Below the pieces are notes generated by a model, which saw only the letters and a list, made by a program, of their open reading frames with translations, was not told where the DNA came from and did no database searches. This document shows positions 35,177-59,182 of a stretch of DNA of 64,000 nucleotides, piece after piece. Position 1 is the stretch's first letter, and every line of letters begins with the position of its first letter. Origin of the DNA: Blastocatellia bacterium (lineage in GTDB: Bacteria; Acidobacteriota; Blastocatellia; Pyrinomonadales; Pyrinomonadaceae); NCBI GenBank assembly GCA_033856915.1, contig JAWVEB010000002.1, positions 24,672 through 88,671 of the forward strand, written 5' to 3'. A program made the position numbers and the translations under genes.

Positions 35177-35244
35177 GGTAGGATCTATGCCAAGTAGCCT
35201 GCCGATAACGGAGGACTCAACGACGGTCTAAGAAGCGAATCACT

Positions 35245-36768: not shown

Positions 36769-36821
36769 ACTTTTGTGCACGAAACATGGTGAGCCTTCAC
36801 AAACCTCAGGAGGTGCGGACA

Positions 36822-38783: not shown

Positions 38784-38804
38784 TACTACGGAGCAATAAC
38801 GATC

Positions 38805-42502: not shown

Positions 42503-42512
42503 GATTTTACAT

Positions 42513-44588
42513 TTAACGCCTCCACCGCATTAAGAGCCCTGAATCGCCGCCGGCTTGGCTGCCGACTAGTTCCTGGGCGATGTTTCCAAAAGTTGAGGTA
42601 AGATCACCTGTTTTGACCAACAGGGCTGCCTGATCGGACGTAGCAATTTCGCGAAGGAACTTTTCATCGGCGCTGCCAAAGCCGATGGCTATGATCTCAA
42701 TTCCTGCTTGATGACATACTTTCGCCTGCTGGATCGCACTCGCTTGACAGGACCAGACTCCATCCGTGAGCACGACGAAATATCGAGATCCTTCGACACC
42801 TTTGAGTTGCTCCAGGGCATGACCAAAGGGGTGCGCAGAATTGCCGCCACCGAGTCCGACCTCCAGTGAGTCAATCGCATGGCTCAGTTTCTTTCCGTCC
42901 TGGGTAGCAAGCTGATCTATGCGCACGGAGTTAGCGAAGGAGACCAGACCAATCGATGTGTGCGATAGATCGCTGCTGCGCACAAATTCATGCATCGCCT
43001 GCTTGGCTTCCGCGAGTGGTGCGCCGCTCATGCTGCCCGAGAGATCAACGGAGAGGTATACGGCCTTATGCGCAATGGCGAGATCCTTCGGCGATTTATA
43101 GATCCAGGACATATCTTCAGGTATGGCTTCCTTGACAACCGTGAGCGAGCGACCCGTGCTCTTCTCGGTGGCCGTCACGCTGATTACGTCGCTGCGGTCG
43201 GACTCGTACGAAATATTCAGTACTGCCAGACCTTTCTTCCCGTGGGGGATGTCACCTATTACGTACTTCCCGACAAACGAACTGTTAGCCGGATCGTCAC
43301 CTTCGCCTTGGGTGACGAAGACCGCAGTGGAGTTATCCCCTTTTTCACGCGTGCGGACCTGGTAAGGACGAACTTCGCTGCATGGTATGGATCGATTCTT
43401 GGGAATCAAAATGCTGTTGAGGTAACGCTCGCCGTCAGCGCTAACCGCTATCATTCCCATGCTGTGGCTCATCACGTCGCGAATACGCGCACTTTTGAGA
43501 AAAGCCAGACCGCCTTTTGCCCTTTTATCTTCGCCATACTCAGCGGCCTGAAGGGCTGCACCCAGGGCAACGCATTCGTCCGGGTTGAGAGCGGTATTGG
43601 CAGGCTTGCAGCTCAATCGTCCGATCAATTTAAGACAGGCCGGCATCCGGGTTGAGCCGCCAACCATAAGCACGCTGCCAATCCGCGAATAGTCAAAGTT
43701 TGTCTCTTCGATTACCTTGCCGATCAGTAGTTCCGTCTGCGAGAGCAAGTCAGCGGTCAGGCTTTCAAACAAATCGCGCGTGATCTCGATCCGATCCATC
43801 TTGCCCTGGCAGTTGATCGCGACGATTGCGTTAGTGCGCGCCGATAAGCTTTTCTTCGCTTCCTCGGCGCGGATTAAGATCTCTTGGAAGGTGTATGGGT
43901 CGTCCAGCGGATTGATGCCATGGCGTTGTTCGAACTGCTCACAAAGATACTGAACGAGGCGGTCATCCCAATCCTTGCCGCCGAGATTGTGATTACCATC
44001 CGAGCCAATCACTTCAATGCCGTCGGGAGAAACCCGCACCAGCGAGATGTCAAAGGTGCCACCGCCGAGGTCGTACACCATTACCGTCTCTTCCCGCGTG
44101 TTCTGCTTCAAACCATAAGCAATGGCCGCCGCCGTGGGCTCATTGATCATTTGCACAACTTCCAGTCCGGCCAGCTCTCCGGCATCTTTTGTGGCCAGCC
44201 GCGCGGCATCCTGGAAATACGCCGGTACAGTGATAACGGCGCGCCGGATTGGTTTGTTGAGTTCCGCCTCACCATCGGTCTTAAGTTTTTTGAGCACTTC
44301 GGCTGAGAGTTCTGACGGCGTGTAGTTGCGGCCCTGATAGCTATAAACGGCCGCCGTACCCATGTCGCGCTTAAAGAATTGCGCGGTGTTCTCCTTTTCC
44401 AGAGCCATTTCCTGCTTGGCTGCCTCACCAACTATCGCACTTCCATCCGGGCGCAGTTGCACAACCGACGGCGTTATCTTGGTCCCCTCGCTGTTTGCCA
44501 GGACCTCGGGTCTGTCATAGTCGTTGATGTAAGCGATGGCCGAGTTGGTGGTGCCCAAGTCAATGCCGACGAGAACTTCTGTATTCAT
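42513..44588 (-). CDS. Hsp70-family ATPase (NBD + beta-SBD) fused to a C-terminal von Willebrand A domain
   Basis: Hsp70 motifs are VGIDLGTTNSAIA, VITVPAYF...MINEPTAAAIAYG, VMVYDLGGGTFDISLV and VLMVGGSTRMPA. The vWA MIDAS context is VYLSVDLSGSMSG...IGLVSFANS...YFVVLTDG. Confidence 0.88.
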   Translation of the reverse strand: MNTEVLVGIDLGTTNSAIAYINDYDRPEVLANSEGTKITPSVVQLRPDGSAIVGEAAKQEMALEKENTAQFFKRDMGTAAVYSYQGRNYTPSELSAEVLKKLKTDGEAELNKPIRRAVITVPAYFQDAARLATKDAGELAGLEVVQMINEPTAAAIAYGLKQNTREETVMVYDLGGGTFDISLVRVSPDGIEVIGSDGNHNLGGKDWDDRLVQYLCEQFEQRHGINPLDDPYTFQEILIRAEEAKKSLSARTNAIVAINCQGKMDRIEITRDLFESLTADLLSQTELLIGKVIEETNFDYSRIGSVLMVGGSTRMPACLKLIGRLSCKPANTALNPDECVALGAALQAAEYGEDKRAKGGLAFLKSARIRDVMSHSMGMIAVSADGERYLNSILIPKNRSIPCSEVRPYQVRTREKGDNSTAVFVTQGEGDDPANSSFVGKYVIGDIPHGKKGLAVLNISYESDRSDVISVTATEKSTGRSLTVVKEAIPEDMSWIYKSPKDLAIAHKAVYLSVDLSGSMSGAPLAEAKQAMHEFVRSSDLSHTSIGLVSFANSVRIDQLATQDGKKLSHAIDSLEVGLGGGNSAHPFGHALEQLKGVEGSRYFVVLTDGVWSCQASAIQQAKVCHQAGIEIIAIGFGSADEKFLREIATSDQAALLVKTGDLTSTFGNIAQELVGSQAGGDSGLLMRWRR

Positions 44589-44638
44589 CCAATCTCCTCA
44601 CGCGATAACCTGCTGTTGTCGTTTCACGTCATGCGGAT

Positions 44639-47188
44639 TCAACGCAATCCAAACCATTGTTTGATACGTACCAGGCCACCTGGCTCCTGGAACATGGTCC
44701 GCCACTTGATCCAACGCAGATGAGCGTTATGACTTTCCATCAGACCTTTCTCAACGGCCTCCAAATCCCTCGCGCGCCAGCTGTGCAGCGCCTTCGGAAG
44801 GACATCGATCAACAGGTAGTTAGCTATTTCGCCGCCCTGCGTCCTTTCGGTGGCGATCCAGATTCTGAACAAGCGAGCCACTTCTCGCGCTTTTCCGGAG
44901 GTATGCCTGGCCAATGAGGCCGCAATCTCCTGCCCATACCAACCTAGAAAAGGTCCGGCTCGTTGACTCCCGTAGGTCCTGATTAACAGGTGGTAGTGTG
45001 CGTCTTCATCTTTGACGTTAATGAGACGACGGGCGAGCAATCTGTAAATGGTGGTCTTGGCTTGTTCGTCCAGGCCGACGCCACGCTGCTTGAGAAACAC
45101 CAGCGCATCCTCGATGGCAACTACCGCGTCACGCCCCTCAAGCAGACCGCTGGCGAAATGACAAGCAACAACGGTTAACGACTTGTCTCCCAGAGTCTCG
45201 AAAATCTCTTTGGAGCTCAGCCGATCTTTCAACTCTTTTTGTTTCGGATCCGACAAGCCCTCGTCGGTGACGACCAGCAGGGGGACCAGGGAGCGCGTTA
45301 TACCCGGGTCCAACACTCGCAGGGCCTGCATCTGATCAAGTAGCCAGGCAGCCTCAGCTAGTGTAGGCATGCACTGCTGCCAGACTGCCACAAACGCATT
45401 GCTAATATTTTCAGCCGACAAAGTCAGGCCAAAACGCTGCGCTGCGGCCAGACATTGCTGGAAAGCCTGGAGGCGCGCATCCGGACCGGCCGATGACAGC
45501 GACGCCTGTGCAGCCATTAAACGAAAATACAGAGCCAGGTTCTTTTGCTCGGTGGCATAGGTCACAAGAGTATTGAAGAGTTCTGGCTGGCTCAGCCATT
45601 GCGCCGCGCCAGTGAACGCGTTTGGCTGACTTACTTGAATCGCGAGATACTCACCGATGCCATAAACGATATCGCGCATTCCCACTCGATGAATAAGCCC
45701 GGCCACAATCTGCCGCACTGGAACGTTGGACAGCGCCGGAGCGACAATTGTCTTGCCCAGGTGGCGCAACATCTCGTCTGGCTCATTAAGAAAGCCCAGT
45801 TTGTCACCAAGTTGCAGAAGCACGCATAAGCGTCTGGGTTCCTCCGTTTGACGAACTTGCTTCATCCAAAGCAGGCGCAGCGGTTGCAATTCGCTATCGA
45901 GCTCAGTCGACAACTGCAGCTGGGATAGCGCGGCCAATATGACTTCCGTTGCAGCACTGACGCTTACGTCCCTGATGAGCCATTCAAGATACGGACGCTC
46001 AATCAGTTCCCTGACCTCAGCATGAGTTTCCTCGTTGCCCGCGGCTAGGAAGAGATCCGTATATGCCTCAACCACCTCGCGGCTGAACCCGACCTTGCTC
46101 ATTCGATCAGAGAGTAGGGTTCGAATCTGTTCGGCCTTGAAATGAGCAAGGTGGCCGGCGCACCACTTAATAATCCGGGCGGTATCGGTGCCGGGCGTAG
46201 CGAACCCTGAAACCAGCGCATGACAGGCGAAAGCCGTATCGAGTTCCTCAAGCGGCACGTCAGCCGCAACCTGCTCAGCAAAGCCGCTGAACCCGGCAAC
46301 GCCTTCCGCATTATTGTCGCGATAGGCGGCTGCGATCTGCGCGGCAAACCCTGAGACATGCACCATTGGAGTAAAACGCTCACCCTGAAAGTCGAAGACA
46401 GAGTATTGATGTTCGATCTCATGCGGCGCGAATTTGAAGTCAGAGTCAGACGTGGTACCAACTATTAGAAACTCACTCTGGTATGGATTCTTGACGTAGG
46501 TGTTGAACGTCAATCGCAATGCGAGATGAGACGGCAGGGAGTACGAGGCGGCGGCGATCCAGAGGGTGATGGTTTCGTCGTCATCAACAATGACGATGCG
46601 CCGGCCTGTGCCGAGCGCGTCCTCAACCGCAGTCAGGAAACGCGGCAGATGTGGCAGGCGATTGTTCTCACGCAAAAACTCTTCGACTGCCTCAAGGTTG
46701 ATGACGCCTCCTGCTCTTGGTTCATCCAATGGGGGCAACGACTTTGCAGAGCTCTCGCTTGTTTCCCACGTTTCGGACCGCCAGAGTTCGACAGGGAGAA
46801 GGCCTTTGCCTTTGATATCCCTTACCGGGTCGAGAGCAACAAGTGTGTGTGTAAAGTAGTTGCCGAACCGTCCGGAGTAATCCGCGCCCAGGTACTTCGC
46901 CTGCGCCAGCAAAGCGCATCCATCGCTAAGACGCTGGTAGAGTAATGATATCGGGAATCGCTCGATCTCTTCCGCCGTGGGCCGGCTCGGCGCACTGATC
47001 GGCGGCACGTACAAACCGAGGCGTTCAATCTGCTGCAACACTGACGGGTTGATGGTGTCGCTGGCTGCATTGATCTGGAACCCCTTGCTGCCGCGCAGGC
47101 CAATCTCGCACGATGTGTAGTAGGCTTGCAAAAAGCTCATCCTCAGTTCCTCCGGCCACGCACGACGTTGAGTTTGTGGAGAATCCAC
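44639..47188 (-). CDS. large alpha-helical protein, GAP1-like (GTPase-associated protein); probable start at 47140
   Basis: The probable N-terminus is MSFLQAYYTSCEIGLRGSKGFQINAASD. I recall this YTSC..G..GFQ motif from GAP1-N type domains, from memory and unverified. The remainder is helical. The ATG at 47140 lies 2 nt after the stop of the upstream GTPase gene. Confidence 0.55.
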   Translation of the reverse strand: MDSPQTQRRAWPEELRMSFLQAYYTSCEIGLRGSKGFQINAASDTINPSVLQQIERLGLYVPPISAPSRPTAEEIERFPISLLYQRLSDGCALLAQAKYLGADYSGRFGNYFTHTLVALDPVRDIKGKGLLPVELWRSETWETSESSAKSLPPLDEPRAGGVINLEAVEEFLRENNRLPHLPRFLTAVEDALGTGRRIVIVDDDETITLWIAAASYSLPSHLALRLTFNTYVKNPYQSEFLIVGTTSDSDFKFAPHEIEHQYSVFDFQGERFTPMVHVSGFAAQIAAAYRDNNAEGVAGFSGFAEQVAADVPLEELDTAFACHALVSGFATPGTDTARIIKWCAGHLAHFKAEQIRTLLSDRMSKVGFSREVVEAYTDLFLAAGNEETHAEVRELIERPYLEWLIRDVSVSAATEVILAALSQLQLSTELDSELQPLRLLWMKQVRQTEEPRRLCVLLQLGDKLGFLNEPDEMLRHLGKTIVAPALSNVPVRQIVAGLIHRVGMRDIVYGIGEYLAIQVSQPNAFTGAAQWLSQPELFNTLVTYATEQKNLALYFRLMAAQASLSSAGPDARLQAFQQCLAAAQRFGLTLSAENISNAFVAVWQQCMPTLAEAAWLLDQMQALRVLDPGITRSLVPLLVVTDEGLSDPKQKELKDRLSSKEIFETLGDKSLTVVACHFASGLLEGRDAVVAIEDALVFLKQRGVGLDEQAKTTIYRLLARRLINVKDEDAHYHLLIRTYGSQRAGPFLGWYGQEIAASLARHTSGKAREVARLFRIWIATERTQGGEIANYLLIDVLPKALHSWRARDLEAVEKGLMESHNAHLRWIKWRTMFQEPGGLVRIKQWFGLR

Positions 47189-48318
47189 AGCAGCGGGTCT
47201 TCCACGCGAAACGGCGCGACACCCATCGGCAAGCGGCCCTGGGAATCGGGCGGCGATCCGAGCGCAGAGACTCCAAAGTAAGAGAAGGTTTCAAAGTTGT
47301 GCTGCAAGAACAGATCAAGCCCTGGCCCCACCCACTGGGCCACATGGGCGCGCATGCTGTCGTTCACCTGCTGAGCGTCGGCGGTATTGAAATAGCCGTC
47401 ATGATCGGCCGCATGGTGTACCGGCGAACCGGGTTCGAAGAGGTCATGCATCTCGTCAACTTTGGAGAAGGCAAGCGCGACCGGCGTCTGGATTTTCTCG
47501 TTATGACTCAACCCGTGGGATTGACGAATCAGTTGTGAAACGCGCCCGATGATCTCTTGTGGCTCGGTGTTTTCCGATGGCAGCGCGGTCGTAGTCTTGA
47601 GCTGGTCGCGCACTGCACGGATCTGCAGCGGGTCCAGCAGGAAGATGATCCCATGTGAGTTCGCCAAATACTTCGTCTCTGTCGACATCAGATCAAGATG
47701 CGTCAGATCTTCGCCAGCAGTGTCAAAGAAAACGAGATTACTCTTGCTCAAGCCTTTGAAAAGAGTTCTGCGCTTTTGCAGACTAAGGCGATAAACAAGC
47801 GGATATCGAACGCTGATGTCCTGGCGACCAGATTTTGTAAATGGAATCACTATCCGCTCGTCGTAGATATATCGCTTAAACTCCTTTTTGTAACGGTCGC
47901 GAGTCTGATCGTCCAGTTCGTAAAAGGAGGCGTCGAAGCTTTGGCCCACACGGTTCTTGAGTTCATTAATTAGAACGGCAATATAGTGACTCTTGCCTGC
48001 CTCTTTAGCTCCGATCAGTGCAACGGTGTAGCTGTCTGTCGTACCGAAGTTCCACGGCAACTCGTTGTGGCAATGATGGCAAACCATTTTTGTTGTTTCC
48101 ATTCCACAGTTGCATGTTGCTCGCACAGCCGGTCGGAGCCAGTTGCTCTTTGGTCTAAAAACGCGCTGCATTAATGGCGGCGGATCCACACGTTGATAAG
48201 CGCCGAAGGGTGCATCTTTTTCCAAAGCGCAACGACTCGCATTAGGATTGATACAGCGAAAGGCCACCTGATGGGGCGGATATCTCTCAAAACAGTAAGG
48301 ACAGATCAGTTGGCGCAT
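47143..48318 (-). CDS. soluble zinc-ribbon P-loop GTPase-like protein
   Basis: Zinc ribbons are CPYCFERY...FRCINPNASRC and CNCGMETTKMVCHHCHNELP. The Walker A is LIGAKEAGKSHYI, with DxxG at VFFDTAGED and an (N/S)KxD-like AFSKVDE. Confidence 0.75.
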   Translation of the reverse strand: MRQLICPYCFERYPPHQVAFRCINPNASRCALEKDAPFGAYQRVDPPPLMQRVFRPKSNWLRPAVRATCNCGMETTKMVCHHCHNELPWNFGTTDSYTVALIGAKEAGKSHYIAVLINELKNRVGQSFDASFYELDDQTRDRYKKEFKRYIYDERIVIPFTKSGRQDISVRYPLVYRLSLQKRRTLFKGLSKSNLVFFDTAGEDLTHLDLMSTETKYLANSHGIIFLLDPLQIRAVRDQLKTTTALPSENTEPQEIIGRVSQLIRQSHGLSHNEKIQTPVALAFSKVDEMHDLFEPGSPVHHAADHDGYFNTADAQQVNDSMRAHVAQWVGPGLDLFLQHNFETFSYFGVSALGSPPDSQGRLPMGVAPFRVEDPLLWILHKLNVVRGRRN

Positions 48319-48319
48319 C

Positions 48320-51300
48320 CTAAGTGATCCTTAGTTGTTGAGGCGGCGGATCGATCAAACGAAAGGTGTGCGCCTGAGGCCCATCGCGAAAGAAGGCGCG
48401 CAAGTAACAAGGACGACGCACGGCGTCCAGAGTGAACTCATGTGAAACCGGAGTTCCACTGTGCAAGCTTAGGTCACTGATAGTAGCGAGCAGAATGCCG
48501 TTATTGTTAGGTAGCGGCTGAATGTCGCCGCGCTTGGCAATTACTACAATTTCGGGGAGGTGCTTAGCCTCTCTCTCCGCGTTAAAGGTGATAGTTATAC
48601 GGTTGCGATGTAACCAGTTACCGCGCGAAATCGAGTAGGAAATAGAAAGAGGTAAACTCGTGCGCAGTAAATCGTGCGCTCCTGGACTGATACCCGAGCT
48701 GTAGATGTCTTCGCCGTCGACCTGGGTAACCGCAAAGACGACTACGTAATAAGGAGCTTTCGCCGGATCATTGATACGAAAACCACCCTCGCCATCATAC
48801 TCTCCCCGCGAGATGCGGTGCGTAGTCGCGCGAGCGTCCAGTGGATCATGGGGATACGCATCATGCCGCCAGGCCACAACGGCCAATCGAGAGTCCTCGG
48901 GCCAGCGCCATTGCAACTGCAAGTACCGACCGAAATCCACCGCTTTAAGGTGTGATACGTCCTGAGTGGTCAGATAGCGGCGAGCATTGCCAATCACAGC
49001 CACATCCCCAGCTATAGTCACTGGCACATAGAACGCAGGCTGAGTCGAGGGAGCAAAATCAACCGCAAGGTTATTCAATTCAATGCGCAGCGGTACGCCC
49101 AGAGCGGCCAGTTTTGCGGCCGGAATCTGCTCACCGATCCGCCACTCTGGCTTTTGAAACGTGCGGTAGAAACTGACCGCGCCATGCTTAGGTGGAACCC
49201 ATGAGACATGCACCACGCCCTCTTCAAGAGTGATCTGAAACTCGTCGATTGCCGGTGGGGGCTGCTCAGGCCTCACGCTCCGGACAATGCCGGATGTAAA
49301 GACCGGCTGTCCCTTCGCGTCTCGATACTCAACCACCACCCGGTAGTAATAGAGATGACCGTTGCTCACTCCCCGGTCCAGGAGATTGTGTGGCCCGGTG
49401 GGCGCGATTTCTAGACCATCGCCGGCTCTGCTCGGTGGCCTGCTTTCCTGCCTGAAGACACGCACGCGCCCTTCAGGCACATCAAATTCCCAGGAACAGT
49501 TGACCAGGCCGCCGCTCGCTTCGACGCTGAGGTTGCTTACTTCTTGCATCACCAGCATGCCGGCGGAAGAAACTCCCTTGGAAAGCACACCTGTACGTTC
49601 AGTAAACACTGTGTAAAAGACATGGCTGGCGGGACGCGCCCTTTGATCAAGGCATGAGGTGGTAGCGACCCTCGCAACCACGTCGCCGTCGGCAAGCGAC
49701 AACGCCGCTCGTCCTTCACGACGAACGATGATGTACTCGCTTCCCCCTACCGCCGGACTGGGCTGCCACTCGACCTGCACCTTTCCCTCGTGCGATTGAG
49801 CGAGCACGTTCGCGGCCGGTTCCGGTGGACAGCGTTGAAGCCCTCTTTGTGCTTCTTCAGCGTCAGCGACAATCTGAAGGGCGTCCTGGTAGGCAAAAAC
49901 TGCTTCGTTCAACCTTCCCTTTTGTTCACACTCTCGGGCCTTCGTCAAGAGCCCCTTACACAGTTTCAGCTTTTCCTCTACTTCGCCTTTCAGTTGCGGG
50001 AGATCTTTGCCGTCAAGCCCTAGATAGTTCGGTGCGACCGTGGCCAGAGAGGCGAGCTTGGTTCGTGCGGCAAAGAACCGGCGAGCCGCCACGGTTTCAT
50101 CAATTTCTCGCCGCAGGCCGCGGACCTGTTCGACGGCAACTTCAATTCGGTCGAGCAGCTTAGCCACATCACCCGAGCGTTCCCACAACCTCTCGGCTTC
50201 GCGTGCCGTCTCATGCGATTCTTCGATCCGACCTTCACCAAGTTCCAGTTGGGCCTGGCGTACGAGCAGGCGAACGCGCGGCAAGTCGCCGGTTTTGAAC
50301 CCACATTTGGCGCAGGCAGGATCACTGGCCGCCGCGCGCGAAGAGCACCTGGGACAGGTGGTCCATAGCTCCGCCCCGCAGGTTGTACAGCTCTGCGCGT
50401 TTGTCTTAAGGGGCACCAGGGCCAGGCATTTCGCGCAACGAACTGTCTCTTCGTCGGTGGACCATTCGACAGCAGCGCCGTACTCTCGCGCCAGAGTCAG
50501 AATGTATTCGGCAGCGGTCTCCTGCGCCAGACCGTGACTCAGGGCCACACCGAGCAACTGCTTGAACTCAGCTTTCGTGATCAGTTTGTCGCCCGCCGCC
50601 AATCGCACTTCCGGTCGCAGTACTTCAACAGCTTCATAGGCCAGAGCGGCGTCATACTTCGCGGCATCGCCGTCAACCATGTGCGTCTTAATCAGACCCA
50701 GCAGCAGATTGGCGTTGGTTAAGGTAAAGTCGCTTTTCTTTTGCCGCCACTCCAACTCGCGTTTGCGAAGACTTTCGGTCAGTCGGTCTTTCGAACAGCC
50801 CCGGTCGACTCCCAGGAACTCATATAGGTCGCGCTTCTGTAAGACATTGAGCCCGCTTCTGATCTGTTCGCGGGTCCCCTTGGGCAGTCCTTCGTTTGTC
50901 GGCAGTCGTACCGAAGATTCCCTGATCGGCACGCGCACCCGCGATCGGATCTCCTGTTCCGTCAAACTCTCGCACCGGTGTTGGGCCAATAGCACACTAA
51001 GTTCACCTGGGTCGATATAGCCTTTCGAGGCGACCATTCGGATTGACCTATCCAGTGCAGCGAAACGCTTCTCTCGGGATTTCTTACGCTCTGCCTCGAC
51101 AAGTTCGCGTACCGCTTTGCGAGCTTCCGAATCCAGCAGATTACGCCTGGCATCCTGCTGTTCTTTTGGCGCCAGCAAGACTGACAACACTTTGCCAAAG
51201 CGCGGATTCTGTTTACTTTTGTTCCAGTAGGCGTGGACAGTCGTGATCGCGGTCTCGATCTCTTTCGGGTCTGAGACTGTGATCGGCAGATCATAGCGCT

Positions 51301-51394
51301 CAAAGCAGTCGGGTAACCGGCTCTCACTCTTGAAAGCGTCCACGGCCGGGCTCAGCACCCGTTTGATATAATCAGCTTCGTCGAATTTCCACAT
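48320..51394 (-). CDS. J-like / double zinc-ribbon protein with helical (TPR-like) middle and C-terminal beta-rich (FN3/Ig-like) repeats; paralogue of 51610..53349
   Basis: The first ~375 aa are homologous to the next gene, and aa 1-67 are identical. The J-helix-like segment is RDLYEFLGVDRGCSKDRLTESLRKRELEWRQKK, with no HPD. The zinc ribbons are VRCAKCLALV...CTTCGAELWTTCPRCSS...CAKCGF. The C-terminal ~500 aa are rich in short beta-strand patterns. Confidence 0.7.
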   Translation of the reverse strand: MWKFDEADYIKRVLSPAVDAFKSESRLPDCFERYDLPITVSDPKEIETAITTVHAYWNKSKQNPRFGKVLSVLLAPKEQQDARRNLLDSEARKAVRELVEAERKKSREKRFAALDRSIRMVASKGYIDPGELSVLLAQHRCESLTEQEIRSRVRVPIRESSVRLPTNEGLPKGTREQIRSGLNVLQKRDLYEFLGVDRGCSKDRLTESLRKRELEWRQKKSDFTLTNANLLLGLIKTHMVDGDAAKYDAALAYEAVEVLRPEVRLAAGDKLITKAEFKQLLGVALSHGLAQETAAEYILTLAREYGAAVEWSTDEETVRCAKCLALVPLKTNAQSCTTCGAELWTTCPRCSSRAAASDPACAKCGFKTGDLPRVRLLVRQAQLELGEGRIEESHETAREAERLWERSGDVAKLLDRIEVAVEQVRGLRREIDETVAARRFFAARTKLASLATVAPNYLGLDGKDLPQLKGEVEEKLKLCKGLLTKARECEQKGRLNEAVFAYQDALQIVADAEEAQRGLQRCPPEPAANVLAQSHEGKVQVEWQPSPAVGGSEYIIVRREGRAALSLADGDVVARVATTSCLDQRARPASHVFYTVFTERTGVLSKGVSSAGMLVMQEVSNLSVEASGGLVNCSWEFDVPEGRVRVFRQESRPPSRAGDGLEIAPTGPHNLLDRGVSNGHLYYYRVVVEYRDAKGQPVFTSGIVRSVRPEQPPPAIDEFQITLEEGVVHVSWVPPKHGAVSFYRTFQKPEWRIGEQIPAAKLAALGVPLRIELNNLAVDFAPSTQPAFYVPVTIAGDVAVIGNARRYLTTQDVSHLKAVDFGRYLQLQWRWPEDSRLAVVAWRHDAYPHDPLDARATTHRISRGEYDGEGGFRINDPAKAPYYVVVFAVTQVDGEDIYSSGISPGAHDLLRTSLPLSISYSISRGNWLHRNRITITFNAEREAKHLPEIVVIAKRGDIQPLPNNNGILLATISDLSLHSGTPVSHEFTLDAVRRPCYLRAFFRDGPQAHTFRLIDPPPQQLRIT
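50270..51394. repeat. paralogous 5' module, copy 1 (matches 52225..53349)
   Basis: The ~315 nt at the 5' ends are near-identical between copies (1 aa change in the first ~105 aa). There are further identical patches, e.g. gcttgaactcagctttcgtgatcagtttgtcgcccgccgccaatcgcacttccggtcgcag. Overall identity is ~80% aa over ~375 aa. Confidence 0.85.
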
Positions 51395-51609
51395 CGCCTA
51401 GATTCCGGCAGAGTACTCATGAGACGTTTGACCCGCCTGACTGTTGCATAACCGGCAGGTAGACACCCTGTTGATTGGCCTTTTCCGTGACAAACCTAGT
51501 TTCAGTCATTTACATACGCACCGGCGTGTTGTTGTGAATCAGTTAGACGAATCACCTATCACCGTGATCTGAGTTCATGGCTACAATGCCCAATCCGTTG
51601 GAGCAGACA

Positions 51610-53349
51610 TTAGTGACCTAGCGATTTCGCGGACTGGTGTGACACAAAGGAATGCGATTCGGACCAAGCCGCCTCCTTACTTCTCAACGCCCAAAGTGTA
51701 AAGGTTCCCTTAAAGCCCTTCATCTCCACGTCGTCATGCCGCACCCAATTGAGGCTCCGATGGTGCTTCGCCCAATAATCATCTACGTGTTCTTTCGCTT
51801 GGTTACTCAACCAAATTTCACTCGCTTCTTTGATGGCGCCGAGCACCCGAGCGGCAAAGTTCACAGTTCCGCCAAAGACGTCATTATCTTCAACCTGCAT
51901 CGGACCGATATGAATGCCCGCGCGAATTTGCACGTGCGAGTGACCAGTCTCCGCTTGCAACGCCATGCCGTAGTCCAACGCCTTATCCACAGACTTAAAC
52001 GTCACCATGAAGCTGTCGCCGATGGTTTTGACTTCCCGCCCGCTGTATTCATTAATTAGTTTGCGGCTTTGCCCGAAGTGCGCGCGCCGGACTTCGTTCA
52101 TGCTCTCTCCCTTAAGTTCTTCACCGAGAGATGTCGAGCCGACGACATCCGTGAAGATAATCGCCAACACGACGCGATCGCCCCCGGCCCAGGCAGAAAA
52201 ACTCGGACCGCTTATTCCGCTGCGCGCCGACTCCACGAACATTCCCATTTTGAATCCACATTTGGAGCAGGCAGGATCGTCTACCGGCATGCGTGCAGAG
52301 CACTTTGGACAGTTGGCCCATAGACCTTCTCCGCACGTTGTGCAACTCTCCGCTTTGGTCTGGAGGCGTACCTGAGCAAGGCAGTTCGCACAATGAACTA
52401 CATCTTCGTCGATAAACCATTCGACGACAGCGTCGTACTCTCGCGCCAGGGTCAGAATGTATTCCGCGGCAGTTCCCCTCGCCAGACCGTGGCTCAGTGC
52501 AACACGCAGTAACTGCTTGAACTCAGCTTTCGTGATCAGTTTGTCGCCCGCCGCCAATCGCACTTCCGGTCGCAGAACCTCGAGAGTCTCGTACGCGAGC
52601 GCGGCATCGTACTTCGCGGGATCGCCGTCAATCAGGTACGCCTTAATGAGACCTAGCAGCAGATTCGCCGCAGTCAAGTTAAAGTCGCTTTTCTTTTGCC
52701 GCCACTCCAACGCACGTTTGCGAAGACTCTCAGTCAGTCGCTCTTTCGAACCACCTCGCTCGACTCCGAGGAAATCGTACAGGTCGCGCTTCTGCAGAAC
52801 GGCGAGCGCGCTCCTGATCTGTTCCCGCGTCCTCTTGGGCAGCCCCTCAGAAATCGGAGAGCGCAAGGAAGATTCCCGGATCGGAACGCGCACCCGCGAC
52901 TTGATCTCATCTTCCGTCAAACTCTCGCGCTGGAAACGAGCCACTAGGTCATTGAACTCACCGGGACCGATATAGCCCTTCGAAGCGATCACTTCGATCG
53001 ACCTGTCCAGAGCCGCGACTCGCTTTTCACGGATCTTCTTACGCTCCGCCTCGACAAGTTCGCGTACCGCTTTGCGAGCTTCCGAATCCAGCAGATTACG
53101 CCGGGCATCCTGCTGTTCTTTTGGCGCCAGCAAGACTGACAACAACTTGCCAAAGCGCGGATTCTGTTTACTTTTATTCCAGTAGGCGTGGACAGTCGTG
53201 ATCGCGGTCTCGATCTCCTTCGGGTCGGAGACTGTGATCGGCAGATCATAACGCTCAAAGCAGTCCGGTAACCGGCTCTCACTCTTGAAAGCGTCCACGG
53301 CCGGGCTCAGCACCCGTTTGATATAATCAGCTTCGTCGAATTTCCACAT
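51610..53349 (-). CDS. J-like / double zinc-ribbon protein fused to a class III nucleotidyl (adenylate/guanylate-type) cyclase domain
   Basis: It has the same N-terminal module as 48320..51394 (DLYDFLGVERGGSKERLTESLRKRALEWRQKK; CANCLAQV...CTTCGEGLWANCPKCSA...CSKCGF). Cyclase motifs are VLAIIFTDVVGSTSL, REVKTIGDSFMVTF, IRAGIHIGP, FGGTVNFAARV and VEMKGFKGTFTLWAL. Confidence 0.85.
   Translation of the reverse strand: MWKFDEADYIKRVLSPAVDAFKSESRLPDCFERYDLPITVSDPKEIETAITTVHAYWNKSKQNPRFGKLLSVLLAPKEQQDARRNLLDSEARKAVRELVEAERKKIREKRVAALDRSIEVIASKGYIGPGEFNDLVARFQRESLTEDEIKSRVRVPIRESSLRSPISEGLPKRTREQIRSALAVLQKRDLYDFLGVERGGSKERLTESLRKRALEWRQKKSDFNLTAANLLLGLIKAYLIDGDPAKYDAALAYETLEVLRPEVRLAAGDKLITKAEFKQLLRVALSHGLARGTAAEYILTLAREYDAVVEWFIDEDVVHCANCLAQVRLQTKAESCTTCGEGLWANCPKCSARMPVDDPACSKCGFKMGMFVESARSGISGPSFSAWAGGDRVVLAIIFTDVVGSTSLGEELKGESMNEVRRAHFGQSRKLINEYSGREVKTIGDSFMVTFKSVDKALDYGMALQAETGHSHVQIRAGIHIGPMQVEDNDVFGGTVNFAARVLGAIKEASEIWLSNQAKEHVDDYWAKHHRSLNWVRHDDVEMKGFKGTFTLWALRSKEAAWSESHSFVSHQSAKSLGH
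52225..53349. repeat. paralogous 5' module, copy 2 (matches 50270..51394)
   Basis: See copy 1. Confidence 0.85.
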
Positions 53350-53373
53350 CGCCCGATGCCCTTGCGGCGCAAG

Positions 53374-55056
53374 CTACGAGACGGTCTGTTTCAACAGCAT
53401 TCCCTTGCTGGCTTCGATTTCCTGTTGGCTCATAACGCCTTCAACCTTTACTTCCAAATTCAAATCTCTACCTGAAGAGGGCTCCACCGCTGTAACACTC
53501 AGCGTCCCGTCCTCCGCGAGGCGAAAAGTGACGTGAATCGGCGAACCCGCAGGCAGGTTGGCTGGCAAAGGCGCGATCTCGCCCTCGCTGATCAACCTGT
53601 TGTCTTCAGGTGACGGAGATTGCGTCTGGCCGGCCTGCTCCATGACGCGCACCGAGACCTGCTGTTGGTTTGGCCTGAGCGTGCCAAATCCAGTCTCGGT
53701 AACTTCGACGGGAACCGGTGTGTTGTTCTGGATTAGATATGCCACATACTCCTTTTCACCGTCCTCAGCATCAACCGCAACTACGCCGAAACCCTTGGAA
53801 CAAACGTTGATGATTTTTCGCGTAGCCATGTCGGCGAGATCTTTGCTCGGCAGACGAAACTTCCCGCCGGCCGTAGCAGTTGCTTTCTTTGCAGCCTCCG
53901 CGATAGTTCCCTGATCGATCTCCGCCAGATCAACCTCCTCGATCGTCGTTCCCGTCTCGTTGGCAATGATCTCCCTGATCATTTCGCCCGCCATGATCTT
54001 CTGGCCCATTAAGGCCGCGCCCTTCGCCACTGACAAATCGGGTTCGAAAAGATTAGTCTCGATCCCAAACTCCTCTTGCATTCTCCGGGCAACAGCGGGC
54101 ATTTTACTTAGGCCTCCGACCAGCAGGATCTGATCGATTTTGCCGATGCCTTTTCCCTTGGCTTCTTCCAATACATGTCGCGTCAGATCAATCGTCTGTT
54201 GCAAGAGATCGGCGGTCAACTCTTCCAGTTTCTCTCGCGTTACCTCGACACGCGCCCGCTTGCCGTTGTGGGAAACCATCAGCGGATATTTCTCTTTCGC
54301 GGACAATCCCTTCTTGATCTCTTCTGCCGATTTGGCAAGCTCTTGCATCGAATAGGGGTCGTCGAGAGGATTGCTCTCACCGGCGTTCTCAGTCATGAAC
54401 TGTTCCGCCAAATATTCGATCAGCCGATCGTCCCAATCTTTGCCCCCCAGATTGTGATTGCCGCCTGTAACCACGACGCGAATATCTCCTTGTTCCATGG
54501 CGATCACCGTGATGTCAAAAGTGCCGCCGCCCAAATCGTAAACGAGCACAACCTCATCACCTTTTGTTTTGTCGTCGCCGTAGCAGATTGCCGCCGCCGT
54601 TGGCTCATTGAGAATATTGACGACGTTCAGGTCAGCCAGGATCCCGGCATTCTTGGTCGCTTCGCGTTCGTTGATCCCGAAGTATGCGGGGCAAGTGATC
54701 ACCACATCTTTGATCTGGTCGCCGACCGTCTGCGAGGCGTCGCTGGCCAGCTTGCGCAAAATGTAGGAAGAGATTTCCTCAGGCCGATAGCTTTTGCCGT
54801 CTATCTCGCGGCTGAACGTCGCGTCACCCATATTGCGCTTCACGAATTCCACGACCCGCCCGGGATCAACCTTACTGGCATTCTTTGCTTCCTTGCCCAC
54901 GACAATGTTGTCCGCACTTTCAAAATGAACGACCGAAGGCGTGGTCAGGTCTCCCTCGAAGTTTGGCACCACGACGGGCTTGCCCCACTCGTCCACATAG
55001 GAGATACATGAATAGGTTGTGCCAAGATCAATTCCGTAGATACGACTCGCGGTCAT
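53374..55056 (-). CDS. non-canonical short Hsp70-family chaperone (NBD + beta-SBD, no helical lid or EEVD tail)
   Basis: Motifs are YGIDLGTTYSCISY, VITCPAYF...ILNEPTAAAICYG, VLVYDLGGGTFDITV and ILLVGGLSKMPAV. The SBD-like part is IHVTFRLAEDGTLSVTAVE. Its ATG overlaps the stop of the GrpE-like gene (ATGA). Confidence 0.9.
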   Translation of the reverse strand: MTASRIYGIDLGTTYSCISYVDEWGKPVVVPNFEGDLTTPSVVHFESADNIVVGKEAKNASKVDPGRVVEFVKRNMGDATFSREIDGKSYRPEEISSYILRKLASDASQTVGDQIKDVVITCPAYFGINEREATKNAGILADLNVVNILNEPTAAAICYGDDKTKGDEVVLVYDLGGGTFDITVIAMEQGDIRVVVTGGNHNLGGKDWDDRLIEYLAEQFMTENAGESNPLDDPYSMQELAKSAEEIKKGLSAKEKYPLMVSHNGKRARVEVTREKLEELTADLLQQTIDLTRHVLEEAKGKGIGKIDQILLVGGLSKMPAVARRMQEEFGIETNLFEPDLSVAKGAALMGQKIMAGEMIREIIANETGTTIEEVDLAEIDQGTIAEAAKKATATAGGKFRLPSKDLADMATRKIINVCSKGFGVVAVDAEDGEKEYVAYLIQNNTPVPVEVTETGFGTLRPNQQQVSVRVMEQAGQTQSPSPEDNRLISEGEIAPLPANLPAGSPIHVTFRLAEDGTLSVTAVEPSSGRDLNLEVKVEGVMSQQEIEASKGMLLKQTVS

Positions 55057-55832
55057 TTCCCTGTTTCCTCCGTTGGTTGATCGGCACTCACGGCCTTTTC
55101 GTTGTCTGTTGCCTCATCCAGGGCGGCGCCCCGTGTGAAGCGAAACACCTCAGCCTCTAAAATGCGAATGATCTTTGTGTCAGTGCGGAAGCCTACGCGC
55201 ACGACACGCGCAATTGCCCTATCAAAGCCAGCGTTCTGCGTGGGAACGACGCCAAGAGCCTTCTGTTCTTTGGAATTGAATGGTGAGCCCTCTAGAGCTT
55301 CGTACCGCTCAACTCCGTGCCGGTAGAGGACATCCTCGACGGCATCGCAGAAAGACTTGAAATCACGTGAGATCTCTTTCATGTCTGCGTCGGCGCGCTC
55401 TTCAAATCTTTTCCCGGTCTGCTTGAGGTCGTCGTAGAGCCTTATGAGATCACGAAATAGCGGAGCGACGGCTTGCGAAATCTCACCGGCACGGAGCTGC
55501 TGATTCTCCTGGTGCAAACGGTCAATTATGCGTTCGCGATCGCTGGAAAGAACGTTAGCTTCCTCGAGAAGGGCGGCTAGCTGCTCGACACGTTGACTCA
55601 AAATCTGAATACCCTCGTTATGCTGGTCCGTGGCAGCCTCAACCTGTTGGTTGGGGACGACCTCTGCTGTAACAACTTGTTCTACTGAAGGGACGTCAGT
55701 GGGTTCTTCTGACACAACTGAATTCGTCGGCGTAATCTCGGAAGCGGGCGGCTGCTCGCCTTCCGGTTCGTTCTGTTCTGCGAGACCCGTGCTTGTTTCA
55801 TCTACACTCATGAAAGTTCCCTCTACAGTCAA
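55053..55832 (-). CDS. GrpE-like nucleotide exchange factor (probable start ATG at 55811)
   Basis: It has an acidic N-terminus and a long coiled coil (VEQLAALLEEANVLSSDRERIIDRLHQENQQL). The C-terminal beta domain is GVERYEALEGSPFNSKEQKALGVVPT...IARVVRVGFRTDTKIIRILEAEV. GAGGGA precedes the ATG at 55811. Confidence 0.7.
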   Translation of the reverse strand: MTVEGTFMSVDETSTGLAEQNEPEGEQPPASEITPTNSVVSEEPTDVPSVEQVVTAEVVPNQQVEAATDQHNEGIQILSQRVEQLAALLEEANVLSSDRERIIDRLHQENQQLRAGEISQAVAPLFRDLIRLYDDLKQTGKRFEERADADMKEISRDFKSFCDAVEDVLYRHGVERYEALEGSPFNSKEQKALGVVPTQNAGFDRAIARVVRVGFRTDTKIIRILEAEVFRFTRGAALDEATDNEKAVSADQPTEETGK

Positions 55833-56406: not shown

Positions 56407-56574
56407 CTATAACCAGCCTTTTCCATGGCACACCCCGCACTTAACGACGCCGGAGCCATGACAATTCTTGCACTGGGATGAAGAAGTTAAGAGGCTACCG
56501 CTTAGCCTGCCTTTACCATGACACTTCGGGCACTTTACGGAGCCTTTTCCGCTGCAGGTGTTGCACTTTGGCAT
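56407..56574 (-). CDS. 55-aa DnaJ-type cysteine-rich zinc-finger mini-protein (below the ORF-track cutoff)
   Basis: Hand translation gives MPKCNTCSGKGSVKCPKCHGKGRLSGSLLTSSSQCKNCHGSGVVKCGVCHGKGWL, which contains four CxxCxGxG repeats. AAGGAGG lies 9 nt upstream of the ATG. Confidence 0.7.
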   Translation of the reverse strand: MPKCNTCSGKGSVKCPKCHGKGRLSGSLLTSSSQCKNCHGSGVVKCGVCHGKGWL

Positions 56575-59163: not shown

Positions 59164-59182
59164 AGCAAGGTCTCGACAGAAC

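What the first reader, a model, noticed from the sequence alone, without database searches (positions are those of the whole stretch)
51669..52167. Class III nucleotidyl cyclase domain tethered to a chaperone-adaptor-like protein, with no obvious cNMP receptor nearby
Seen: the catalytic signatures are intact. These are the metal Asp in IIFTDVVGST, KTIGDSFM, GIHIGP, and GGTVNFAARV with its Asn and Arg. Established: class III cyclases make cAMP or cGMP. Related enzymes (Pycsar PycC) make cCMP or cUMP as antiphage signals that activate linked effectors. Inference: the cyclase could be the signalling output of the cluster. I see no CAP/cNMP-binding, GAF or HD-GYP domain in the neighbouring genes. 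The receptor may therefore be novel (one of the GTPases, GAP1-like, or vWA) or encoded elsewhere. The Lys in VKTIGD hints at a purine (adenine-type) substrate, but that is weak.
Basis: partly seen in the sequence, partly recalled or inferred. Interest (0 to 1): 0.65.

Follow-up and report, generated by a model that had tools for sequence, protein, structure and literature searches.

The report
Cyclase grafted onto a chaperone adaptor
An intact cAMP-type cyclase domain has been spliced onto a duplicated copy of the Hsp70-docking module of a predicted but never tested bacterial GTPase/Hsp70 "conflict" operon, which gives that system a rare nucleotide-making output whose target is not encoded nearby.

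Summary
Window 51669-52167 (-) encodes residues 395-560 of a 579-aa protein (51610-53349, -). This is a class III cyclase domain (Pfam PF00211, E 2e-16) with every catalytic residue present and an adenine-type Lys/Asp pair. The gene sits in an 8-gene operon that matches the "GAP1-N2 DO-GTPase system, Hsp70/GrpE theme" predicted by Kaur et al. 2020.

Residues 1-369 form a helical module with an HPD-less J-like domain and a double zinc ribbon. They are 82% identical to the N-terminus of the next gene, the system's FNIII-repeat component. The cyclase cassette (from residue ~371) belongs to a very tight clade. That clade normally forms the C-terminus of a horizontally mobile WD40-Roc-COR-ZnR-cyclase protein found in many bacterial phyla and in Methanothrix archaea. 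A decayed copy of the Hsp70 tail just downstream (51435-51626) shows the gene arose by tandem duplication with cyclase capture.

Only one other such chimera was found. None of 149 other N-module family representatives carries a cyclase; one carries a TIR domain. No cNMP receptor was found in the window or next to clade members. It is not a Pycsar cyclase. Most likely it is a chaperone-docked adenylate cyclase acting as an accessory output. The function is untested.

The parts
51610..53349 (-). Chimeric 579-aa protein: N-module (aa 1-369), linker and class III cyclase cassette (aa ~371-560), short tail
   Evidence: ORF and translation; Pfam PF00211 and DZR; 82% identity of aa 1-369 to the next gene
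51670..52239 (-). Captured linker plus cyclase cassette (aa 371-560). Pfam domain is aa 396-555. Catalytic residues are D401, K441, D445, R476, D490, N497, R501, K544
   Evidence: The linker FVESARSGISGPSFSAWAGG matches the host-family linker FVMSAKGETSTxSFxxWAGG
52540..52788 (-). J-domain-like helical hairpin (aa ~188-270). The loop R217-D222 (RQKKSD) stands where HPD would be
   Evidence: AF2 pLDDT 93.9. Foldseek hits to many J-domains, prob 0.9-0.98, TMt 0.5-0.68. HPD present in 0 of 69 family members. Weak phmmer hit to DNAJC3
52255..52392 (-). Double zinc ribbon (aa 320-365); the fusion junction follows directly after CGFKMG369
   Evidence: Pfam DZR; eight Cys at least 90% conserved in the family
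51435..51626 (-). Pseudogenised remnant of a duplicated Hsp70 substrate-binding beta-domain, just after the cyclase stop codon
   Evidence: tblastn gives 69% identity to the in-frame C-terminal extension of orthologue P0002. It has 4 in-frame stops. GC3 is 0.39 against ~0.6 in the genes
48320..51394 (-). FNIII-repeat component (1024 aa): paralogous N-module (50288-51394), helical region, and about five beta-sandwich repeats
   Evidence: AF2 pLDDT 89; Foldseek to fibronectin FnIII tandems, E 6e-12; 125 of 149 N-module family representatives share this C-terminal part
53374..55056 (-). Hsp70 (560 aa): nucleotide-binding domain plus SBD-beta, no helical lid
   Evidence: Pfam HSP70, E 5e-104; alignment to DnaK
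55053..55832 (-). GrpE-like nucleotide-exchange factor
   Evidence: Pfam GrpE, E 6e-14
47143..48318 (-). DO-GTPase (391 aa) with two N-terminal zinc ribbons
   Evidence: Pfam DO-GTPase2; sequence
44639..47188 (-). GAP1 (GAP1-N2, GAP1-M and GAP1-C domains)
   Evidence: Pfam E 8e-34, 4e-20 and 2e-16
42513..44588 (-). Second Hsp70 fused to a vWA domain
   Evidence: Pfam HSP70 E 9e-118, VWA E 1e-17
40412..42502 (-). Membrane DO-GTPase: hydrophobic N-terminal stretches (aa 1-49 and 120-175, read as four TM helices), zinc ribbons, GTPase, one C-terminal TM segment, outward-facing SH3
   Evidence: Pfam DO-GTPase1/2 and SH3_3; hydropathy

Best explanation
The 579-aa protein is a recently made chimeric accessory subunit of a GAP1-N2-type DO-GTPase / Hsp70-GrpE conflict operon.

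Shown: its first 369 residues are a duplicate of the N-terminal module of the system's FNIII component. That module has a helical region, an HPD-less J-like domain and a double zinc ribbon. Its last ~200 residues are a cyclase cassette of the kind that normally ends a mobile WD40-Roc-COR-ZnR-cyclase protein. The gene arose by tandem duplication of [Hsp70 3' end + N-module] with the cassette at the junction. The cyclase keeps all catalytic residues and the adenine-type Lys/Asp pair.

Inferred: the shared N-module docks the cyclase to the same partner as the FNIII protein. That partner is most probably the cognate Hsp70/GrpE pair, because GrpE-Hsp70-N-module is the persistent gene triad. Class III cyclases need a homodimer to form their active sites. 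I therefore expect the chaperone/GTPase machinery to keep the domain monomeric or sequestered until the system fires. Assembly or release would then bring two cyclase domains together and convert ATP to 3',5'-cAMP plus pyrophosphate.

Inferred, least certain: the cAMP burst acts outside the operon. It would work either on the cell's general cAMP receptors or by draining the adenylate pool. It adds a growth-arrest or alarm output to a system whose ordinary output is the FNIII/vWA/membrane assembly.
For: Catalytic integrity: Pfam E 2e-16, and the eight key residues are conserved in at least 116 of 119 clade members. K441, D490 and N497 align with K101, D157 and A164 of the characterised adenylyl cyclase Ma1120 (PMC4215837). 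dN/dS of the cyclase domain against its orthologue is 0.34.

Chimeric origin: N-modules are 82% identical at protein level and 84% at DNA level, rising to 96-99% in the first 270 nt. The orthologue P0002 carries an in-frame 150-aa copy (70% identity) of its own Hsp70 SBD-beta plus the same stop and spacer sequence; the window keeps a decayed remnant. The linker matches the Roc-COR-ZnR-cyclase family linker.

System identity: DO-GTPase x2, GAP1-N2/M/C, Hsp70, GrpE, Hsp70-vWA and a J-like FNIII protein match the text of Kaur et al. 2020. The orthologous locus L001 has the same operon.

Docking module: J-domain fold. The N-module is found next to GrpE/Hsp70 in L001, L006 and L088, the last even without the GTPases.

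Output position: another family member carries TIR in place of the cyclase (P0241). In the homologous Roc-COR scaffold encoded 6 kb away, the same C-terminal slot holds an REase nuclease. The neighbourhood is rich in defence genes. No terminator-like site lies between the cyclase gene and the next gene.
Against: There is no biochemical evidence for activity, product, Hsp70 binding or any anti-invader role. The whole system class is only a computational prediction. The J-like domain lacks HPD in all 69 members examined, so canonical stimulation of the Hsp70 ATPase is doubtful. The chimera is known from only two contigs, so it could be a short-lived evolutionary accident. dN/dS of 0.34 rests on few substitutions (dS 0.16). 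No receptor or cAMP phosphodiesterase was found, so the downstream step is open. The duplicated Hsp70 tail is already decaying in the window.
Confidence: 0.55

Rival explanations
1. Self-sufficient toxic effector. Once activated, the cyclase arrests or kills the cell by locking the adenylate pool into cAMP (ATP depletion) rather than by signalling to a receptor.
For: The same cassette (60-72% identical) works as the C-terminal domain of a single-gene WD40-Roc-COR protein spread across many bacterial phyla and Methanothrix archaea. No Pfam family recurs in more than 3 of 122 neighbouring genes there. An output that portable should not depend on a host-specific receptor. In homologous scaffolds the same slot holds directly toxic domains: an REase and TIR.
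Against: The closest characterised relatives (Ma1120, Rv1900c, Rv1264) are, to my knowledge, ordinary signalling cyclases of modest turnover. No depletion-type class III cyclase turned up in the literature searches. cAMP phosphodiesterases and ATP regeneration would counteract depletion.
Confidence: 0.2
2. Pycsar/Pucsar-like two-part signalling. The cyclase makes a dedicated cyclic mononucleotide that switches on a cognate CNBD-effector protein (TIR or membrane type) encoded elsewhere in the genome.
For: Cyclase-plus-CNBD-effector systems exist for cCMP/cUMP and now cGMP, with cAMP suggested as possible. PADLOC PycC models give a weak hit (E 2e-4).
Against: The PycC hit covers only aa 393-457 at 18.7 bits. 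The clade profile prefers canonical adenylyl cyclases by more than 20 orders of magnitude over a solved uridylate cyclase. Residues at the base-recognition positions are K441/I443, not the R142/Q144 of EaPycC. No CNBD protein was found in 64 kb or beside clade members. Known systems of this type keep cyclase and effector adjacent.
Confidence: 0.1
3. Evolutionary by-product. The chimera is a neutral or decaying result of a tandem duplication and contributes nothing to the system.
For: Only two occurrences among billions of proteins searched. The duplicated Hsp70 tail is a pseudogene in the window. Cyclase-less systems are the rule.
Against: The ORF is intact in both genomes. All catalytic residues are kept. 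dN/dS is 0.19 for the N-module and 0.34 for the cyclase. The 5' 270 nt are kept near-identical to the paralogue. GC3 is gene-like, unlike the remnant.
Confidence: 0.1
4. Housekeeping stress signalling. An Hsp70-controlled adenylate cyclase reports proteotoxic or envelope stress through cAMP and is unrelated to conflict with invaders.
For: Titration of Hsp70 by unfolded clients is a classic stress-sensing logic. The membrane GTPase with an outward-facing SH3 suggests envelope sensing. One related GrpE-Hsp70-N-module triad lies in a Ter stress-type cluster.
Against: The surroundings are defence-rich: a GajA/AriA/OLD-like ATPase, a TIR-WD40-Roc-REase protein, an LmuA-like protein and a Cas4-like protein. 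Divergence between the two operons is mosaic and rapid, with GAP1 at 57% aa identity and the GTPase at 90%. Variable C-termini including TIR fit a conflict system better.
Confidence: 0.05

Closest known systems
GAP1-N2-type DO-GTPase conflict system, Hsp70/GrpE theme (Kaur, Burroughs, Iyer & Aravind, eLife 2020, PMC7159879; computational prediction only)
   Same: Every described component is present. These are two DO-GTPases (one with zinc ribbons only, one with four N-terminal and one C-terminal TM segments plus SH3), GAP1 with N2/M/C domains, Hsp70, GrpE, a second Hsp70, and an FNIII-repeat protein with an N-terminal DnaJ-like domain.
   Different: The paper's main text never mentions a cyclase in GTPase-centric systems; the one supplementary file held as text had no relevant hits. 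Here a second copy of the DnaJ-like module carries a class III cyclase instead of FNIII repeats. The second Hsp70 is fused to vWA.
Mycobacterial minimal class III adenylyl cyclases (Ma1120, Rv1900c/LipJ, Rv1264)
   Same: They are the best solved relatives (E 9e-25, 2e-20 and 1e-8 with the clade profile). The domain is of similarly short length. They share the same Lys/Asp adenine-specifying pair and the homodimer-type residue set in a single chain.
   Different: The window protein has the canonical Asn (N497) where Ma1120 has Ala164. It has a different N-terminal partner (J-like/ZnR) and a conflict-system context.
Pycsar (cCMP/cUMP) and Pucsar (cGMP) antiphage systems
   Same: A class III-fold cyclase produces a cyclic mononucleotide in a defence context.
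   Different: The window cyclase is not of the PycC clade. It has no adjacent CNBD-TIR or CNBD-TM effector. Its specificity residues are of the adenine type. The cyclase is a domain of a larger adaptor protein inside an 8-gene operon.
cNMP-cyclase effector domains of MoxR-vWA (VMAP) ternary systems (Kaur et al. 2020)
   Same: A cNMP cyclase is fused as a variable effector to a component of a chaperone-thresholded conflict system.
   Different: The chaperone is different (MoxR AAA+ versus Hsp70/GrpE) and so is the carrier protein. Many vWA-fused versions are reported as catalytically inactive, whereas this one is intact.
WD40-Roc-COR-ZnR-cyclase proteins (uncharacterised; more than 571 loci in GTDB representative genomes)
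   Same: This family is the closest relative of the cassette and its likely source. It is 60-72% identical over linker plus cyclase, always C-terminal and directly after a zinc ribbon.
   Different: The window protein has no WD40, Roc or COR. The presumed dimerisation switch (Roco GTPases cycle between monomer and dimer, PMC5714945) is replaced by the J-like module.
N-module-TIR protein P0241 (metagenome contig, locus L006)
   Same: Same N-module and zinc ribbon, similar length (593 aa), with a nucleotide-processing effector domain in place of the FNIII part. GrpE is encoded next to it.
   Different: It carries TIR instead of a cyclase. The contig is too short to show the rest of the system.

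Membership tests
Class III nucleotidyl cyclase (PF00211) | Domain match above the curated threshold | tested here: met
   60.6 bits against a cut-off of 21.9, aa 396-555 covering 10-181 of 183 profile positions
Class III nucleotidyl cyclase (PF00211) | Two metal-binding Asp residues | tested here: met
   D401 (FTD) and D445 (GD); conserved in 118 of 119 and 119 of 119 clade members
Class III nucleotidyl cyclase (PF00211) | Transition-state Asn and Arg, plus phosphate-binding Arg and Lys | tested here: met
   N497, R501, R476 and K544; conserved in at least 116 of 119
Adenylyl (rather than guanylyl or pyrimidine) cyclase | Lys/Asp substrate-specifying pair | tested here: met
   K441 and D490 align with K101 and D157 of Ma1120 (PMC4215837); both invariant in the clade
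Adenylyl (rather than guanylyl or pyrimidine) cyclase | Measured product is 3',5'-cAMP | not testable with these tools
   Needs an enzyme assay with LC-MS
Pycsar / Pucsar | Cyclase belongs to the PycC/PucC clade | tested here: not met
   PADLOC PycC gives 18.7 bits over aa 393-457 only. PDB uridylate cyclase 8jsz scores E 0.099 against Ma1120 at 9e-25
Pycsar / Pucsar | Adjacent effector with a cyclic-nucleotide-binding domain | tested here: not met
   No cNMP_binding hit in 36 window ORFs
GAP1-N2 DO-GTPase system, Hsp70/GrpE theme | DO-GTPase(s) plus GAP1 with an N2-type N-domain | tested here: met
   PF19993/PF19975 in two proteins; PF20013, PF20014 and PF20052 in one
GAP1-N2 DO-GTPase system, Hsp70/GrpE theme | FNIII-repeat component fused to a DnaJ-type domain | tested here: met
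   AF2 model with Foldseek to fibronectin FnIII tandems, E 6e-12; J-fold in the N-module
GAP1-N2 DO-GTPase system, Hsp70/GrpE theme | Hsp70 and GrpE genes, with a second Hsp70 gene | tested here: met
   same order in the orthologous locus L001
GAP1-N2 DO-GTPase system, Hsp70/GrpE theme | Acts against invading genetic elements | not testable with these tools
   No experimental paper found. The defence-rich neighbourhood is only circumstantial
J-domain protein (Hsp40 co-chaperone) | J-domain four-helix fold | tested here: inconclusive
   Many J-domain hits with prob 0.9-0.98 and TMt 0.5-0.68 over 60-75 residues, but whole-query E-values are 0.8-4 because the domain is a fifth of the model. Pfam DnaJ is only 'weak' in orthologue P0003
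J-domain protein (Hsp40 co-chaperone) | HPD tripeptide between helices II and III | tested here: not met
   Present in 0 of 69 family members; the window has RQKKSD
Roco (Roc-COR) protein | Roc GTPase plus COR tandem | tested here: not met
   The 579-aa protein shares only the post-ZnR linker and cyclase with that family

The most novel reading that the evidence does not exclude
Canonical (non-Pyc) adenylate cyclases act as immune-type outputs of NTPase- or chaperone-gated sensors. In this operon an Hsp70/J-like adaptor would hold the cyclase as a client and release or dimerise it on infection, giving a cAMP burst. The same cassette at the C-terminus of the cross-domain mobile WD40-Roc-COR family would mark a large, unrecognised class of cAMP-producing single-protein defence sensors in bacteria and archaea. 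These would work without a dedicated neighbouring receptor.
Probability: 0.25. Interest if true: 0.75.

Novelty: new variant of a known kind. Interest (0 to 1): 0.5.

Why it matters
GAP1/DO-GTPase/Hsp70 systems are a large, purely predicted class of prokaryotic conflict systems with no known read-out. A variant whose extra subunit is an enzyme with an easily measured product (cAMP) would give experimenters a direct reporter of when and how such a system fires. It would also allow a test of whether an HPD-less J-like module really couples clients to a dedicated Hsp70. The duplication footprint is a clean natural example of how effector domains are swapped onto a constant docking module. The donor family (WD40-Roc-COR-ZnR-cyclase) is highly conserved across phyla and in methanogenic archaea. 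That raises the wider question of whether plain cAMP synthesis is used as a defence or arrest output.

Tried and rejected
- A word-indexed homologue search with the N-module alone returned only 3 proteins and missed even the window's own paralogue. The exhaustive HMMER search was needed.
- I looked for a cyclase at the C-terminus of the neighbouring WD40-Roc protein (59183-62500). There is none; it ends in an REase domain.
- I looked for a conserved receptor next to clade members. Three individual loci and a pooled Pfam scan of 122 neighbours gave nothing recurrent. Families present in three or fewer neighbours could be hidden by the top-25 list.
- PADLOC gave no system-level hit for any operon protein apart from weak PycC hits.
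- The promoter and terminator scan showed nothing above the shuffle expectation.
- The one supplementary file of Kaur et al. held as text had no hit for cyclase, GAP1-N2, DnaJ or GrpE. So I cannot exclude that a cyclase variant is listed in their source data.
- The source organism could not be identified. The exact-sequence contig look-up failed and cluster members carry no organism names. The nearest named relative of the FNIII component is from a Blastocatellia MAG, which is only a weak hint.
- The 55-aa CxxCxGxG ORF upstream of GrpE has no counterpart in the orthologous locus, so I did not count it as part of the system.
- GC and GC3 of the cassette do not differ from the rest of the operon, so composition gives no sign of recent foreign origin.
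Full report
**1. The observation**

The finding's coordinates (51669-52167) lie on the minus strand inside ORF 51610-53349, which encodes a 579-aa protein. They correspond to residues 395-560. Pfam finds the adenylate/guanylate cyclase catalytic domain at residues 396-555, at 60.6 bits against a cut-off of 21.9 (E 2e-16). It also finds a double zinc ribbon at residues 320-365.

- D401 in IIFTD.
- K441 and D445 in KTIGD.
- R476 in RAGIHIGP.
- D490, N497 and R501 in DVFGGTVNFAARV.
- K544 in MKGFKG.

The best solved relative is the Mycobacterium avium adenylyl cyclase Ma1120 (E 2e-15), followed by Rv1900c and Rv1264. In that alignment K441, D490 and N497 fall on K101, D157 and A164 of Ma1120. The spacing agrees once the 7-residue gap is counted. 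K101 and D157 are the experimentally studied ATP-specifying residues (PMC4215837).

**2. The operon**

Eight genes on the minus strand run from 55832 to 40412. Seven of the junctions are overlaps or gaps of at most 50 nt; the eighth is a 215-nt gap after the cyclase gene. No terminator-like site lies in that gap. The genes are:
- GrpE.
- Hsp70.
- The cyclase protein.
- A 1024-aa protein.
- A DO-GTPase.
- GAP1 with N2, M and C domains.
- Hsp70 fused to vWA.
- A second DO-GTPase ending in SH3.

This is the "GAP1-N2-type GTPase-centric system", second theme (Hsp70 plus GrpE), predicted by Kaur, Burroughs, Iyer and Aravind (PMC7159879). The match extends to details:
- The 391-aa GTPase has two N-terminal zinc ribbons.
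- The 696-aa GTPase has hydrophobic N-terminal stretches (read as four TM helices), one C-terminal TM segment and then an SH3 domain.
- The 1024-aa protein folds with pLDDT 89 into the N-module, a helical region and a row of beta-sandwiches. Foldseek matches these to fibronectin type III tandems at E 6e-12.
- The first Hsp70 is a nucleotide-binding domain plus SBD-beta without the lid.

No experimental paper on DO-GTPase/GAP1 systems was found. The eLife text never mentions a cyclase in these GTPase-centric systems.

**3. The protein is a chimera, and its origin can be read**

Residues 1-369 are 82% identical, without gaps, to residues 1-369 of the FNIII component encoded next. At DNA level the identity is 84% overall and 96-99% in the first 270 nt, which suggests gene conversion.

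An AF2 model of this N-module (pLDDT 93.9) is all-helical followed by the zinc ribbons. Foldseek repeatedly matches one part of the model, which I place at about residues 188-270 from the helix layout, to J-domains (prob 0.9-0.98, TMt 0.5-0.68). None of 69 family members has the HPD tripeptide; the window has RQKKSD at that loop. So it has a J-like fold but is not a canonical J-domain.

An exhaustive HMMER search found 649 family representatives. Of the top 149, 125 carry the FNIII-type C-terminal part and none carries a cyclase. A few carry other C-termini: TIR (P0241), pentapeptide repeats with PEGA, Sel1 with YARHG, TPR with LprI, or TM2. The P0241 gene is followed by GrpE.

The N-module is encoded next to GrpE-Hsp70 in L001, and in L088 even without any GTPase or GAP1; P0241 in L006 is followed by GrpE. 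It is encoded next to the GTPases and GAP1 in L087. The persistent partner is therefore the Hsp70/GrpE pair.

**4. The cyclase cassette comes from elsewhere**

Database relatives match only the last third of the protein, at 50-73% identity. In 115 of 119 of them the domain is C-terminal behind a variable N-terminal part: Roc/Ras GTPase with WD40, TIR, Mrr or others.

A scan of GTDB representative genomes found at least 571 loci. The typical host is a ~1050-aa WD40-Roc-COR-ZnR-cyclase protein that is 61-77% identical over its full length in most of the 23 hosts aligned (one is 34%). The hosts include Verrucomicrobiota, Acidobacteriota, Planctomycetota, Nitrospirota, Bacteroidota, Magnetococcales and Methanothrix/Methanosarcinales archaea. 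That pattern indicates extensive horizontal transfer.

The window protein's junction follows directly after its zinc ribbon (CGFKMG369). The next residues, FVESARSGISGPSFSAWAGG, match the host family's post-ZnR linker FVMSAKGETSTxSFxxWAGG.

The window itself encodes, 6 kb away, a TIR-WD40-Roc-COR-ZnR protein (59183-62500). It is 32% identical over 844 residues to a cyclase host, and the homology stops after the ZnR. The window protein then has an REase domain where the host has the cyclase. The cyclase therefore occupies a slot that elsewhere holds effector domains.

**5. The duplication footprint**

Only one other N-module-cyclase protein exists in the collections searched. This is P0002 (89% identical), in an orthologous operon on a 388-kb metagenome contig.

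P0002 is 722 aa. Its extra C-terminal 150 residues are a 70%-identical copy of residues 409-560 (SBD-beta) of its own upstream Hsp70. They are followed by the same stop-plus-spacer sequence that precedes the N-module. The layout is [Hsp70 tail - spacer - N-module] - cyclase - [Hsp70 tail - spacer - N-module] - FNIII. That is a tandem duplication with the cassette at the junction.

In the window the second Hsp70 tail survives only as a frameshifted, truncated remnant at 51435-51626. It has four in-frame stops and a non-coding GC3 of 0.39 against about 0.6 in the genes. The cyclase ORF itself is intact in both genomes, with dN/dS of 0.34 for the cyclase domain and 0.19 for the N-module.

Divergence between the two operons is mosaic. 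dS is 0.25 for the cyclase gene and 0.37 for the small GTPase, but 1.1-2.5 for the Hsp70s, GrpE and GAP1. This points to recombination between lineages.

**6. The receptor question**

Pfam scans of 36 window ORFs found no cNMP-binding, GAF, HD-GYP, CARF or SAVED domain. Ten of those ORFs had no hit at all.

Around clade members elsewhere there was no receptor either:
- Three inspected loci showed toxin-antitoxin, methyltransferase, TIR and transposase genes, but no receptor.
- In a pooled scan of 122 neighbours of 35 loci, no family occurred more than three times.

The core proteins of the operon are the same in the many cyclase-less systems, so they are unlikely to have evolved as cAMP receptors. 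The target is therefore either the cell's general cAMP machinery or the adenylate pool itself.

**7. Relation to Pycsar**

The analogy does not survive testing:
- PADLOC PycC models give a partial 18.7-bit hit.
- A profile of the clade hits Ma1120 at 9e-25 but a solved uridylate cyclase only at 0.099.
- The positions that read the base are Lys and Ile here, where the cCMP synthase EaPycC has Arg142 and Gln144.
- No CNBD effector is adjacent.

A 2026 preprint extends Pycsar-type systems to cGMP and speculates about cAMP. Those cyclases are still two-gene systems of the Pyc clade.

**8. Mechanism I consider most likely (confidence about 0.55)**

Shown: an intact adenine-type cyclase is fused to a duplicated docking module inside the operon.

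Inferred:
- The module brings the cyclase to the dedicated Hsp70/GrpE, and through it or beside it to the GTPase-GAP1-FNIII assembly.
- Class III cyclases form their active sites only across a dimer. This is established for the family, and each chain here carries the full residue set, which is the homodimer type.
- The chaperone/GTPase machinery therefore probably controls activity by controlling dimerisation or release.
- The product is cAMP.
- The downstream effect is exerted outside the operon.

Rivals, with my confidence in each:
- A receptor-free, adenylate-draining toxic effector (0.2). The cross-domain portability of the cassette and its effector slot favour this.
- A Pycsar-like pair with a remote effector (0.1).
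- A functionless by-product of the duplication (0.1).
- A housekeeping stress sensor (0.05).

**9. Novelty and verdict**

The domain is an ordinary class III cyclase, and the operon belongs to a described, though only predicted, system. Three things are new:
- The combination: a cyclase grafted onto the system's Hsp70-linked adaptor, seen in only two contigs.
- A legible duplication-and-capture history.
- A link to a widespread, highly conserved Roc-COR-cyclase family.

I rate it a new variant of a known kind, of moderate interest (0.5). The value is mainly practical. It offers an assayable output for an untested system class, and it points to cAMP synthesis as a possible defence-type output.

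Noticed in passing
window 51435-51626 (-): Pseudogenised remnant of a duplicated Hsp70 SBD-beta immediately after the cyclase stop codon. It has four in-frame stops, is 69% identical to the in-frame tail of orthologue P0002, and has GC3 of 0.39. It records the tandem duplication that created the gene.
   Followed up: yes
window 56407-56574 (-): A 55-aa ORF made almost entirely of four CxxCxGxG motifs (a DnaJ-type zinc finger). It is on the same strand, 575 nt upstream of GrpE. It has no counterpart in the orthologous locus L001, so its link to the operon is unclear.
   Followed up: partly
window 57472-62500 (+): Two adjacent defence-like genes. One is a GajA/AriA/OLD-type ATPase (57472-59163). 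The other is a 1105-aa TIR-WD40-Roc-COR-ZnR-REase protein (59183-62500), homologous to the scaffold that elsewhere carries the cyclase cassette.
   Followed up: partly
loci L007-L053 (e.g. L053:5406-8519, L011:5385-8522): A ~1050-aa WD40-Roc-COR-ZnR-cyclase protein that is 61-77% identical over full length in most aligned hosts. It occurs across Verrucomicrobiota, Acidobacteriota, Planctomycetota, Nitrospirota and Methanothrix archaea, with at least 571 loci in GTDB representatives and no conserved neighbour. I found no paper on its function.
   Followed up: partly
window 40412-55832 versus L001:7506-22169: Mosaic divergence between the two orthologous operons. dS is 0.25 for the cyclase gene and 0.37 for the small GTPase, against 1.1-2.5 for the Hsp70s, GrpE and GAP1. 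GAP1 is only 57% identical at protein level. This suggests recombination or diversifying turnover within the system.
   Followed up: partly
window 53080-53349 versus 51125-51394 (-): The first 270 nt of the two paralogous N-modules are 96-99% identical, while the rest is 72-86% identical. This is consistent with gene conversion at the 5' ends.
   Followed up: partly
L006:1999-4392: An N-module-ZnR-TIR protein (P0241, 593 aa) followed directly by GrpE. It is a TIR analogue of the cyclase chimera, on a contig too short to show the rest of the system.
   Followed up: partly
L088:7080-13051: A GrpE-Hsp70-N-module/FNIII triad without any DO-GTPase or GAP1. It is embedded among Ter-type stress genes (TerD, ATPgrasp_Ter, PRTase_2, PELOTA_1, C-C_Bond_Lyase). 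The chaperone triad is therefore a separable unit.
   Followed up: no
window 21530-24685 (-) and 34193-40331 (+): Further conflict-like genes in the window. One is a 1051-aa TPR-CHAT protein. The other is a plus-strand set with a Cas4-like PD-(D/E)XK plus RNase H-like protein, two proteins without any Pfam match (327 and 694 aa) and an LmuA-like metallo-beta-lactamase-fold protein.
   Followed up: no
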